A DNA stretch of 64,000 nucleotides from Escherichia phage T4, in sequence record NC_000866.4; one strand, written 5' to 3'. The position numbers and the translations under genes are program-made. Below are positions 5,156 through 11,287 of this stretch, in pieces (within the stretch, counting starts at the first letter, position 1; each line of letters opens with the position of its first letter). Below the pieces are notes generated by a model that saw only the letters and a list, made by a program, of their open reading frames with translations, searched no databases and was not told the origin of the DNA.

Positions 5156-6780
<1,625 letters not shown>

Positions 6781-6781
<1 letters not shown>

Positions 6782-7023
6782 TGGAAGGTTTAATTGAAGC
6801 TATTAAATCAAACGACCTCGTAGCCGCTCGTAAATTATTTGCTGAAGCCATGGCTGCAAGAACGATTGATTTAATTAAAGAAGAAAAAATCGCTATCGCT
6901 CGCAATTTCTTAATCGAAGGTGAAGAACCTGAAGACGAGGATGAAGATGAAGATGACGAAGATAGTGATGATAAAGACGACAAAAAAGACGAAGACTCTG
7001 ACGAAGACGAGGATGATGAATAA
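6781..7023 (+). CDS. 67: Prohead core protein with poly-acidic C-terminus
   Basis: 80-aa ORF; C-terminal 30 residues almost entirely D/E; position between portal and gp68. Confidence 0.9.
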
Positions 7024-7448
7024 TGCTTCTGATCCCTGAAACTCATGAATTAGTTCTCGAGAATGTCGAAGCACTTATTCCTGAAGCACAGGGTCGCTTT
7101 GACGAATTGTCTTCTGCTTTAAATAAAGACGATATAAATACAATTGTCGAGAATATGCTTGATGATGAAACTGATTTAGCGGTTGCATTAGCTTCTATTA
7201 ATGAAAATATGCCGTTAAATGAATTCATCGTTAAACATGTTTCTGCCCGTGGTGAAATTACTCGCACTAAAGACCGCAAAACGCGTGAACGAAATGCATT
7301 TCAAACCACTGGGCTGTCTAAAGCAAAACGTAGACAAATTGCTCGTAAAGCTACCAAAACGAAGATTGCCAATCCAGCAGGTCAATCTCGTGCTCAGCGT
7401 AAGCGTAAAAAAGCTCTTAAACGCCGTAAAGCATTAGGATTAAGCTAA
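7023..7448 (+). CDS. 68: Prohead core protein
   Basis: 141-aa ORF with basic C-terminus, overlapping start/stop with neighbours; T4 gene 68 position. Confidence 0.88.
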
Positions 7449-8086
7449 TGAATGAACCCCAATTACTAATTGAAACTTGGGGTCAACCTGGCGAAATTAT
7501 TGATGGCGTACCAATGCTTGAATCTCATGATGGAAAAGACTTAGGTTTAAAACCGGGTTTATACATCGAAGGAATATTCATGCAAGCGGAAGTCGTCAAT
7601 AGAAATAAACGTCTTTATCCAAAACGTATATTAGAAAAAGCGGTAAAAGACTATATTAATGAGCAAGTTTTAACTAAACAAGCTCTCGGAGAATTAAATC
7701 ATCCTCCACGCGCTAATGTTGACCCGATGCAAGCCGCTATCATTATAGAAGATATGTGGTGGAAAGGAAATGACGTATACGGACGAGCTCGTGTTATTGA
7801 AGGTGACCATGGTCCTGGAGATAAATTAGCAGCTAATATTCGTGCCGGATGGATTCCAGGAGTTTCTTCTCGTGGATTAGGTTCATTGACTGACACAAAT
7901 GAAGGTTATCGTATCGTAAACGAAGGATTCAAATTAACTGTAGGTGTTGATGCAGTATGGGGTCCAAGTGCTCCAGATGCATGGGTAACTCCTAAGGAAA
8001 TTACCGAATCACAGACGGCGGAAGCCGATACAAGTGCCGATGACGCCTATATGGCTCTCGCAGAGGCCATGAAAAAAGCGTTATAA
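7448..8086 (+). CDS. 21: Prohead core protease
   Basis: 212-aa ORF; length and position match T4 gp21. Confidence 0.93.
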   Translation: MNEPQLLIETWGQPGEIIDGVPMLESHDGKDLGLKPGLYIEGIFMQAEVVNRNKRLYPKRILEKAVKDYINEQVLTKQALGELNHPPRANVDPMQAAIIIEDMWWKGNDVYGRARVIEGDHGPGDKLAANIRAGWIPGVSSRGLGSLTDTNEGYRIVNEGFKLTVGVDAVWGPSAPDAWVTPKEITESQTAEADTSADDAYMALAEAMKKAL

Positions 8087-8089
8087 ATA
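8082..8089 (+). promoter_or_regulatory. Late promoter TATAAATA for gene 22
   Basis: Exact TATAAATA overlapping the gene 21 stop, 28 nt upstream of the gene 22 ATG. Confidence 0.7.
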
Positions 8090-10560: not shown

Positions 10561-11232
10561 CTATTTTATACGATAGCAATCAGGCATATCATCCGCATTT
10601 ATCCAATTGCGAATAGTTTTAGGACTAACTTTAAAATGCTCCGCTGCGTAATCAGGATTATCAAATTTAACGCCCTTTATACATATTGGAATAAATTTTT
10701 TAATACCACCAAGTTTTTCAGAAATAGCTTTACGATGTGAAATCGATATAGGTTTGTTTTTTCGTGGATGAACATGTGTTTTATAATATTCATTGCGCCC
10801 TTTAACTCGCTTCGCAATAGTTTCATCAGATTGCTTAACGCCTGTTTTTGCCTTTGATATTTTTCGTTTAGCTTCCACAGTCATTCCTTCTTTTGTTCGT
10901 ATTGATAACATATTACGATATGAAGGATCTTGCAAATGAACTATAACTGGATTTCCTCTGCCACCAATAGCAGCATTATAGGTATCAGTTCTCATAACGA
11001 ATTCCTCATTAACTAGTAAAGCTTCCATTTTATACATCTCCTCAGATGAGGAGAAAGAATAAAGAATTTCTTTTTTAAAGTTATGAATACCATATTTTTT
11101 GATGGATTTTTTGATGTTTACGCCAGAACCCATATAACCATCGTTTTCGTCAAGAGTAGCATGAGCTCCGATGTAAATTTTTCCATTGATGATATTAGTA
11201 ATTTGATATATTAAATATTTCATTTTAAACAT
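10561..11232 (-). CDS. segD: GIY-YIG homing endonuclease-like protein
   Basis: GIY-YIG motif (LIYQITNIINGKIYIG); ORF track starts at GTG 11235, first ATG at 11232 gives 223 aa; lies between genes 23 and 24 as T4 segD. Confidence 0.85.
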   Translation of the reverse strand: MFKMKYLIYQITNIINGKIYIGAHATLDENDGYMGSGVNIKKSIKKYGIHNFKKEILYSFSSSEEMYKMEALLVNEEFVMRTDTYNAAIGGRGNPVIVHLQDPSYRNMLSIRTKEGMTVEAKRKISKAKTGVKQSDETIAKRVKGRNEYYKTHVHPRKNKPISISHRKAISEKLGGIKKFIPICIKGVKFDNPDYAAEHFKVSPKTIRNWINADDMPDCYRIK

Positions 11233-11287
11233 CACTCCGTTTGTATATGATTATAATATCATATTACTTTGGTCTTGTAAATAACTT

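What the first reader, a model, noticed from the sequence alone, without database searches (positions are those of the whole stretch)
6781..7023. Extreme poly-acidic tail on a prohead core protein
The C-terminal 30 residues of the 80-aa protein are almost entirely Asp/Glu ([30 protein letters not shown]), consistent with a polyanion scaffold role. The complementary strand of this tract produces a spurious poly-Ser ORF.
Basis: seen in the sequence. Interest (0 to 1): 0.2.

Follow-up and report, generated by a model that had tools for sequence, protein, structure and literature searches.

The report
Acidic tail of T4 gp67
This is gene 67 of bacteriophage T4, a long-known small head-assembly protein whose strongly acidic tail is real and conserved in related phages, so the finding is correct but ordinary.

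Summary
ORF 6781-7023 (+) encodes an 80-aa protein, and 25 of its last 30 residues are Asp or Glu. The window is phage T4 itself (100% identity), and the ORF is T4 gene 67 (gp67/PIP, Pfam PF17634). It is an essential prohead core protein with about 340 copies per prohead, and the gp21 prohead protease cleaves it.

New detail found here:
- The tail begins right after the only invariant internal motif of the family, E46-G47-E48, which matches the gp21 cleavage motif (L/I)-X-E|.
- The released piece, G47-E80, would weigh 3.99 kDa. It is the best fit among possible cleavage products to the "3.9 kDa gp67 fragment" reported in mature heads (about 139 copies).
- AlphaFold predicts helices at 2-9 and 13-44 and a disordered tail.
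- The tail is conserved in composition across Straboviridae (net -8 to -27) but not in sequence or length. It is almost absent in Vibrio phage KVP40.
- Gene 68 next door always encodes a basic C-terminal tail (+16 to +20).

The antisense poly-Ser ORF is a mechanical by-product of GAN codons. How the tail works, probably as a cleavable polyanion that pairs with basic core proteins, is inferred and has not been tested. Novelty: already known. Interest: low.

The parts
6781..7023 (+). T4 gene 67 CDS including the stop codon; gp67/PIP, an 80-aa prohead core protein
   Evidence: ORF listing; 100% identity to T4 records that annotate gene 67 here; Pfam PF17634 E=1.8e-48; PHROG 1064 'prohead'
6781..6918 (+). 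N-terminal helical domain, residues 1-46, net charge -1
   Evidence: AlphaFold2 on alignment A1 gives helices 2-9 and 13-44 with pLDDT 87-93. This domain alone retrieves the family.
6910..6924 (+). L44-I45-E46 | G47-E48: the domain boundary and a predicted gp21 protease site of the (L/I)-X-E| type
   Evidence: E46, G47 and E48 are the only invariant internal columns besides D12 in 26 diverse homologs. The motif definition comes from PMC9026906. Sites are listed.
6919..7020 (+). Poly-acidic tail G47-E80: 34 aa (16 D, 11 E, 3 K, 2 S, 1 G, 1 P), net -24, 3.99 kDa, predicted disordered.
   Evidence: Composition; no secondary structure and pLDDT 55-67; fragment mass against the 3.9 kDa gp67 fragment in mature heads
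6779..6783 (+). TAATG: the gene 20 stop overlaps the gene 67 start by one base
   Evidence: Sequence; ORF coordinates
7021..7025 (+). TAATG: the gene 67 stop overlaps the gene 68 start by one base
   Evidence: Sequence; ORF coordinates
7023..7448 (+). Gene 68 (gp68, 141 aa), the neighbouring core protein. The last 45 residues (7311-7445) have net charge +18. It is a candidate electrostatic partner of the tail.
   Evidence: Annotation; PHROG 1049; charges and conservation in relatives
7448..8086 (+). Gene 21, the prohead protease that processes gp67
   Evidence: Pfam Peptidase_S77 E=6e-112; annotation; literature
6732..7046 (-). Antisense 104-aa Ser-rich ORF; judged not to be a gene
   Evidence: No PHROG hit; not annotated in T4; open antisense frame explained by GAN codons, with no consistent ATG in relatives

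Best explanation
The ORF is bacteriophage T4 gene 67, which encodes gp67 (PIP), a small essential component of the prohead scaffolding core.

Shown here or in the literature: the protein has two parts. Residues 1-46 form a roughly neutral helical domain that defines the family. Residues 47-80 form a disordered polyanionic tail with net charge -24. The two parts meet at the invariant E46-G47-E48, which fits the gp21 protease motif (L/I)-X-E|.

Inferred mechanism: about 340 copies of the tail supply about -8,000 charges in the DNA-free prohead. There they act as flexible counter-ions or tethers for basic core components, namely the gp68 C-terminal tail and the internal proteins IPI-III. They also help make the core a polyanionic space-filler. 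Once the shell is complete, gp21 cuts at E46|G47 (and at E6 and E34). This uncouples the tail from the helical domain and dissolves the core. The released 3.99 kDa tail is the '3.9 kDa gp67 fragment'. About 40% of the copies stay in the mature head as an acidic internal peptide and the rest leave.
For: Identity:
- 100% DNA identity to T4; annotation as gene 67.
- Pfam GP67 at 163 bits; the identical protein is named 'Prehead core component PIP'.

Architecture:
- AlphaFold2 predicts helices 2-9 and 13-44 with high confidence and a tail with no structure.
- E46-G47-E48 is invariant in 26 diverse homologs while the tail sequence is not conserved.
- In 142 homologs with the hydrophobic-X-EGE motif, the tail is 16-54 aa, 54-88% D+E and net -8 to -27, while the N domain has net -3 to +1.

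Processing:
- gp21 cleaves after (L/I)-X-E, and gp67 is cut into several fragments.
- T4 gp67 has three such sites, at E6, E34 and E46.
- Table 1 of PMC9026906 lists 341 gp67 copies per prohead and 139 copies of a 3.9 kDa fragment per mature head.
- Among site-bounded fragments, G47-E80 (3.99 kDa) is the closest fit.

Charge budget, using published copy numbers: gp67 contributes -8,500, against +7,650 for all net-basic core proteins combined.

Partner:
- Gene 68 is adjacent in every Straboviridae locus examined and always ends in a basic tail, with the last 45 aa at +16 to +20.
- gp67 and gp68 are reported to be jointly absent from cyanomyoviruses.
Against: - No experiment or structure addresses the tail itself. 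No solved structure contains gp67, and a full-text search for 'gp67' together with 'acidic' and 'prohead core protein' found nothing.
- The match to the 3.9 kDa fragment rests on mass alone. Residues 1-34 (3.73 kDa) are a weaker alternative.
- KVP40 gp67 keeps the helical domain (hhalign probability 80%) but has only 6 residues after the G (net -4), even though its gp68 keeps a +20 tail. A long acidic tail is therefore not required for the family's function in every lineage.
- gp67 tail charge varies threefold while gp68 tail charge is nearly constant. This argues against strict one-to-one pairing.
- The core is already strongly anionic through gp22 (-16,240), so neutralising basic proteins does not obviously need gp67.
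- In many relatives the P3 residue is M, V or F rather than L or I.
Confidence: 0.6

Rival explanations
1. The tail is an entropic, nucleic-acid-repelling filler. A disordered polyanionic brush would keep the core hydrated and expanded and keep host RNA or DNA out of the empty prohead. After cleavage, electrostatic repulsion from incoming DNA would drive it out. It would have no specific basic partner.
For: Only composition is conserved, not sequence or length. The tail is predicted to be disordered. The core as a whole is strongly anionic. Most core fragments leave the head. Tail charge does not track gp68 tail charge.
Against: About 40% of the copies of the 3.9 kDa fragment remain in DNA-filled heads, which is odd for something simply repelled by DNA. 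KVP40 manages almost without a tail. This rival is not exclusive of the main explanation.
Confidence: 0.25
2. The tail is selectively neutral low-complexity sequence, produced and kept going by replication slippage in a GAN-codon tract. It has no function of its own.
For: Among 120 close homologs there are 81 distinct tails but only 22 distinct N domains, and they differ mainly by in-frame gains and losses of D/E codons. Weak 6- and 9-nt tandem repeats lie in the tract. KVP40 lacks the tail.
Against: A strongly acidic tail persists, always starting at the same invariant EGE, in homologs down to about 40% identity across many genera, including Aeromonas, Acinetobacter, Klebsiella, Morganella, Krischvirus and Pseudotevenvirus. 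Neutral slippage would not hold net charge at -8 or below in 142 of 142 motif-bearing homologs.
Confidence: 0.08
3. The real gene is the antisense 104-aa poly-Ser ORF (6732..7046, minus strand), or both strands code.
For: The antisense frame is open across all of gene 67 in T4 and in several relatives.
Against: It has no family match and is not annotated in any T4 record. It overlaps genes 20, 67 and 68. Codons of the form GAN cannot create antisense stops in that frame, so the open frame is forced. Its boundaries vary, and an ATG is missing in 3 of 11 relatives. The sense product has a curated Pfam family and decades of genetics behind it.
Confidence: 0.01

Closest known systems
Bacteriophage T4 gp67 (PIP, 'prehead core component / precursor to internal peptides'), Pfam PF17634, PHROG 1064
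   Same: It is this protein: 100% nucleotide identity, the same 80 residues and the same position between genes 20 and 68.
   Different: Nothing differs. This report adds only the domain and cleavage-site analysis and the comparative view of the tail.
T4 gp22, the major scaffolding core protein (Pfam PF25623 T4_CASP)
   Same: It is also an acidic core protein (net -28). gp21 cuts it at many (L/I)-X-E sites, and a small fragment (2.5 kDa, about 115 copies) stays in the mature head.
   Different: There is no sequence relationship, since gp67 does not match PF25623. The gp22 charge is spread along the 269-aa protein rather than concentrated in one disordered tail.
Vibrio phage KVP40 gp67 (Schizotequatrovirus)
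   Same: It has a homologous helical domain (hhalign probability 80%, E=1.4e-5), the same position between genes 20 and 68, and a gp68 with a basic tail.
   Different: It is 55 aa long, ends 6 residues after 'VDGE', has net charge -4 and has no poly-acidic tail. The residue before the G is D rather than E.
Disordered acidic C-terminal tails of nucleic-acid-binding proteins (T4 gp32, T7 gp2.5, E. coli SSB, HMGB1, nucleoplasmin); recalled from general knowledge, not tested here
   Same: Each is a flexible polyanion attached to a folded domain, and each competes with or substitutes for nucleic acid in contacts with basic surfaces.
   Different: These proteins are unrelated in sequence and context. 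Their tails are regulatory or partner-binding tips and are not cut off by a maturation protease inside a capsid. This is an analogy of mechanism only.

Membership tests
T4 gp67 / PIP family (Pfam PF17634 GP67) | Sequence match to the family model above the curated threshold, over the full length | tested here: met
   163.2 bits against a cut-off of 27; residues 1-80 match model positions 1-80. PHROG 1064 E=1.7e-30.
T4 gp67 / PIP family (Pfam PF17634 GP67) | Gene lies between portal gene 20 and genes 68/21 in a T4-type head module | tested here: met
   Order 18-19-20-67-68-21-22-23 in the window. The 20-67-68-21-22 part of this order is the same in 15 other Straboviridae loci.
T4 gp67 / PIP family (Pfam PF17634 GP67) | Substrate of the gp21 prohead protease (cleavage after (L/I)-X-E) | tested here: met
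   The motif occurs at E6, E34 and E46, and E46-G47 is invariant in the family. Cleavage itself is known from the literature only.
T4 gp67 / PIP family (Pfam PF17634 GP67) | Physical component of the prohead core, and essential for head morphogenesis | not testable with these tools
   Literature: about 340 copies per prohead, essential, and mutants affect head shape.
Major scaffolding proteins of T4-like phages (Pfam PF25623 T4_CASP) | Sequence match to the T4_CASP model | tested here: not met
   gp67 matches only PF17634. The neighbouring gp22 matches PF25623 with E=6.8e-89.
Folded DNA-mimic proteins (Ocr-type) | Rigid fold that displays carboxylates with DNA-like geometry | tested here: not met
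   The tail is predicted to be unstructured, with pLDDT 55-67 and no helix or strand. No solved-structure relative was found.

The most novel reading that the evidence does not exclude
The gp67 tail would be a purpose-built, protease-released 'DNA stand-in'. In the empty prohead it would occupy the basic surfaces of gp68 and the internal proteins, which later contact DNA. The single conserved cut at E46|G47 would be the switch that hands those surfaces over to the genome. The fraction of tail peptide kept in the head would tune DNA condensation or ejection. The fast in-frame length changes of the tail would then adjust this balance, and KVP40 would have moved the function to another protein.
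Probability: 0.2. Interest if true: 0.3.

Novelty: already known. Interest (0 to 1): 0.08.

Why it matters
It matters little for discovery. Gene 67 of T4 has been mapped, sequenced and studied genetically since the 1980s, and it has its own Pfam family.

The useful points are modest:
- The acidic tail is a discrete module bounded by a protease site.
- It probably corresponds to the acidic 3.9 kDa peptide found in mature T4 heads.
- Only its composition is conserved, not its sequence.
- One lineage has lost it.

Together these give a clean, testable handle on how electrostatics organise and then dismantle the complex T4 scaffolding core, whose internal structure is still unresolved. The case also shows how poly-Asp/Glu tracts create false antisense poly-Ser ORFs and attract wrong database names.

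Tried and rejected
- Solved structures: a PDB sequence search with gp67 found nothing, even at E<=1.
- Amphipathic helix or coiled coil: the hydrophobic moment of helix 13-44 is no higher than in shuffled sequence (0.13 against 0.20 +/- 0.10), and no heptad register stands out. I make no such claim.
- Cyanophage homolog: S-CRM01 g40 (73 aa, net -17, directly upstream of gp21) looked like a gp67 analogue, but hhalign gives 2% probability and Pfam gives nothing. I treat it as a positional and compositional resemblance only.
- Ackermannviridae P46FS4 ORF18: weak (20% probability). Not claimed.
- Charge co-variation between the gp67 tail and the gp68 tail: gp68 is nearly constant (+16 to +20) while gp67 varies, so there is no informative correlation.
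- Primary literature: the T4 genome review (PMC150520), Keller 1988 (PMC253734) and Black & Rao 2012 (PMC4365992) are not held. Searches for 'internal peptide' and 'gene 67' returned nothing useful.
- From memory only: I recall that the classical acid-soluble 'internal peptide II' of T-even phages is rich in Asp, Glu and Lys and derives from PIP. I could not verify this and it is marked as memory.
- The antisense ORF as a gene: rejected.

Full report
**Observation.** The sequence at 6781-7023 (+) is an ATG-initiated ORF of 80 codons plus a stop. It translates to [80 protein letters not shown]. Residues 47-80 carry a net charge of -24 and residues 1-46 a net charge of -1. D+E makes up 12.5% of long ORFs in the window, so 25 or more acidic residues in 30 has a binomial probability near 2e-18. 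The next most acidic 30-residue stretch in any open reading stretch of at least 60 aa in the window has 14 acidic residues. The antisense ORF 6732-7046 (-), 104 aa and one-third Ser, is also present.

**Identity.**
- A 1-kb query around the ORF is 100% identical to many phage T4 genome records and 95-99% identical to hundreds of other T4-type phage genomes.
- In T4T (HM137666) the ORF is annotated as gene 67, 'prohead core protein; gp67; pip'. It sits between gene 20 (portal) and genes 68, 21 (prohead protease), 22 (scaffold) and 23 (major capsid protein).
- The protein matches Pfam PF17634 'GP67' end to end at 163 bits against a gathering score of 27. It also matches PHROG 1064 'prohead'.
- The identical protein occurs on 268 contigs, and UniRef names it 'Prehead core component PIP'.
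- Its neighbours match Portal_T4, Peptidase_S77 and T4_CASP.
- So the window is T4, and the feature is a gene known since the early 1980s. The genetics papers are cited in PMC7411985 and PMC9026906.

**What the literature held here says.**
- gp67 is present at about 340 copies in the prohead core, together with gp22 (~580), gp68 (~240), gp21, IPI-III (~360 each) and Alt (~40). It is not on the list of dispensable core proteins and is marked essential in Table 1 of PMC9026906.
- gp21 cleaves after Glu in the short motif (L/I)-X-E, and it cuts gp22, gp67 and gp68 into fragments that mostly leave the head.
- Table 1 of PMC9026906 lists 341 gp67 copies per prohead and 139 copies of a 3.9 kDa fragment per mature head.
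- Mutations in genes 67 and 68 shift heads from prolate to isometric, and cyanomyoviruses, which have isometric heads, are reported to lack both genes.

**Anatomy worked out here.**
- *Searching without the tail.* I searched with the N-terminal 50 residues only, so the tail could not drive retrieval. That domain finds homologs in 1,115 phage records and 17 representatives of a 50%-identity library. Sixteen of the 17 carry an acidic tail; the exception, P0121, is a chimera after residue 33.
- *Alignment.* In 26 diverse sequences the only invariant positions are M1, D12 and the block E46-G47-E48, exactly where the tail begins.
- *Numbers across homologs.* Over the 142 homologs whose hydrophobic-X-EGE motif my pattern recognised, the tail is 16-54 residues long, 54-88% D+E and net -8 to -27. 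The N-terminal domain stays between -3 and +1.
- *How the tail evolves.* Composition is conserved but sequence and length are not. Among 120 close relatives there are 81 distinct tails against 22 distinct N domains, and they differ mostly by in-frame D/E codon gains and losses. Weak 6- and 9-nt repeats lie in the tract.
- *Structure.* AlphaFold2 on the alignment predicts helices 2-9 and 13-44 with pLDDT 87-93. From residue 45 onward it predicts no secondary structure, with pLDDT 55-67. No solved structure contains a relative.

**Cleavage and the 3.9 kDa fragment.** T4 gp67 has three (L/I)-X-E sites, which would be cut after E6, E34 and E46. I listed every fragment bounded by these sites or by the termini. 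G47-E80 weighs 3.99 kDa, residues 1-34 weigh 3.73 kDa, and all the others are 3.06 kDa or less, or 4.46 kDa or more. The acidic tail is therefore the best candidate for the 3.9 kDa gp67 fragment that persists in mature heads. This fits the names 'PIP' and 'precursor to internal peptides' used in several genome records. From memory, not verified here, the classical acid-soluble internal peptide of T-even phages was described as rich in Asp, Glu and Lys, which is the tail's composition.

**Context.**
- Genes 20, 67, 68 and 21 are joined by one-base stop/start overlaps: TAATG at 6779-6783 and at 7021-7025, and the ORFs abut at 7448. This arrangement would allow coupled translation.
- Gene 68 follows gene 67 in every Straboviridae locus examined. 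Its product always ends in a well-conserved basic tail, with the last 45 residues at +16 to +20.
- I made a charge budget from published copy numbers. The core is net anionic at about -17,600. gp22 contributes -16,240 and gp67 contributes -8,500, of which -8,160 comes from the tail. All net-basic components together (gp68 and IPI-III) contribute +7,650.

**Most likely mechanism.**
- *Shown:* the two-part architecture, the invariant boundary that matches the protease motif, the conserved anionic composition, and membership of the T4 core.
- *Inferred:* the helical domain builds gp67 into the core. The disordered tail acts as a polyanionic counter-ion or tether for basic core proteins and as a space-filler. 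gp21 cutting at E46|G47 disconnects the tail and helps dissolve the core. Part of the released 3.99 kDa peptide remains in the head.
- I give the full mechanism a probability of about 0.6. The identity of the gene is essentially certain.

**Evidence that limits the mechanism.** Vibrio phage KVP40 has a gp67 whose helical domain aligns to the family profile (hhalign probability 80%, E=1.4e-5). It ends six residues after 'VDGE' with net charge -4, while its gp68 keeps a +20 tail. A long acidic tail is therefore not needed in every lineage. gp67 tail charge also varies threefold while gp68 charge is nearly constant, which argues against strict one-to-one pairing. The core is already anionic through gp22.

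**Rivals.** The alternatives are a non-specific entropic, nucleic-acid-excluding brush (about 0.25; it can coexist with the main explanation) and neutral slippage-generated sequence (about 0.08; contradicted by the persistent negative charge and the fixed start point across genera).

**The antisense ORF.** It matches no PHROG family and is not annotated in T4. It overlaps the end of gene 20, all of gene 67 and the start of gene 68. Read on the other strand, one base out of register, GAN codons give TCN (Ser) and cannot create stops. The frame therefore stays open in most relatives, but its ends vary, and 3 of 11 relatives have no ATG. It is a by-product.

**Comparison and verdict.** This is T4 gp67 itself, so it is already known. 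It works somewhat like gp22, which is also an acidic, protease-dismantled core protein that leaves a small internal peptide, but it is not a member of that family. By analogy only, it resembles the disordered acidic tails of DNA-binding proteins. Interest is low.

Noticed in passing
L014:1537-1704 (Vibrio phage KVP40, AY283928): The KVP40 gp67 homolog (55 aa) keeps the helical domain (hhalign probability 80%) but ends 6 residues after 'VDGE'. It has essentially no acidic tail (net -4), while its gp68 is longer (163 aa) with a +20 basic tail.
   Followed up: partly
L018:1923-2144 (Synechococcus phage S-CRM01 g40): A 73-aa ORF directly upstream of gp21 has an acidic C-terminus (net -17), and a 48-aa basic ORF precedes it. 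Reviews say cyanomyoviruses lack gp67 and gp68. Homology to gp67 is not supported (hhalign 2%, no Pfam hit), so this may be an unrelated analogue or chance.
   Followed up: partly
L019:1626-2109 (Salmonella phage P46FS4, Ackermannviridae): The ORF after the portal gene (55 aa) resembles the gp67 helical domain only weakly (hhalign 20%). The next ORF (101 aa) ends ...RKKKAMKFRKMMGLS, very like the T4 gp68 ending ...[16 protein letters not shown]. This suggests the gp68 basic tail is conserved beyond Straboviridae.
   Followed up: partly
window 7311-7445 (+), gene 68 C-terminus: The last 45 residues of gp68 have net charge +18. Their sequence is well conserved across genera, unlike the adjacent acidic tail of gp67.
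   Followed up: partly
window 6692-6781 (+), gene 20 C-terminus: The portal protein ends in the second most acidic stretch of the window (14 of 30 D/E: [30 protein letters not shown]), immediately before gene 67.
   Followed up: no
window 5195-5207 (+): The mechanical ORF list starts gene 20 at a TTG at 5195 (528 aa). T4 records annotate the ATG at 5207 (524 aa).
   Followed up: no
window 7133-7140, 5171-5178, 8082-8089 (+): Exact matches to TATAAATA (which I recall as the T4 late-promoter consensus) lie inside gene 68, before gene 20 and before gene 22. The window has 19 matches against 8.4 expected by chance.
   Followed up: no
window 10561-11235 (-): The segD GIY-YIG homing endonuclease gene lies on the opposite strand between genes 23 and 24. 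The ORF list gives a GTG start one codon upstream of the annotated start.
   Followed up: no
proteins P0053, P0105, P0005, P0047, P0121: Some database names for gp67 homologs are wrong: 'putative long tail fiber distal subunit' and 'guanine nucleotide-binding protein subunit alpha'. Near-identical copies (99-100%) are filed under Enterococcus faecalis, probably from contamination. P0121 is gp67 residues 1-33 fused to unrelated sequence.
   Followed up: no
literature (PMC9958956 vs PMC9026906): Two recent reviews disagree on gp68. One says it is non-essential and degraded by gp21. The other's Table 1 marks it essential and not cleaved, although its text says it is cleaved.
   Followed up: no
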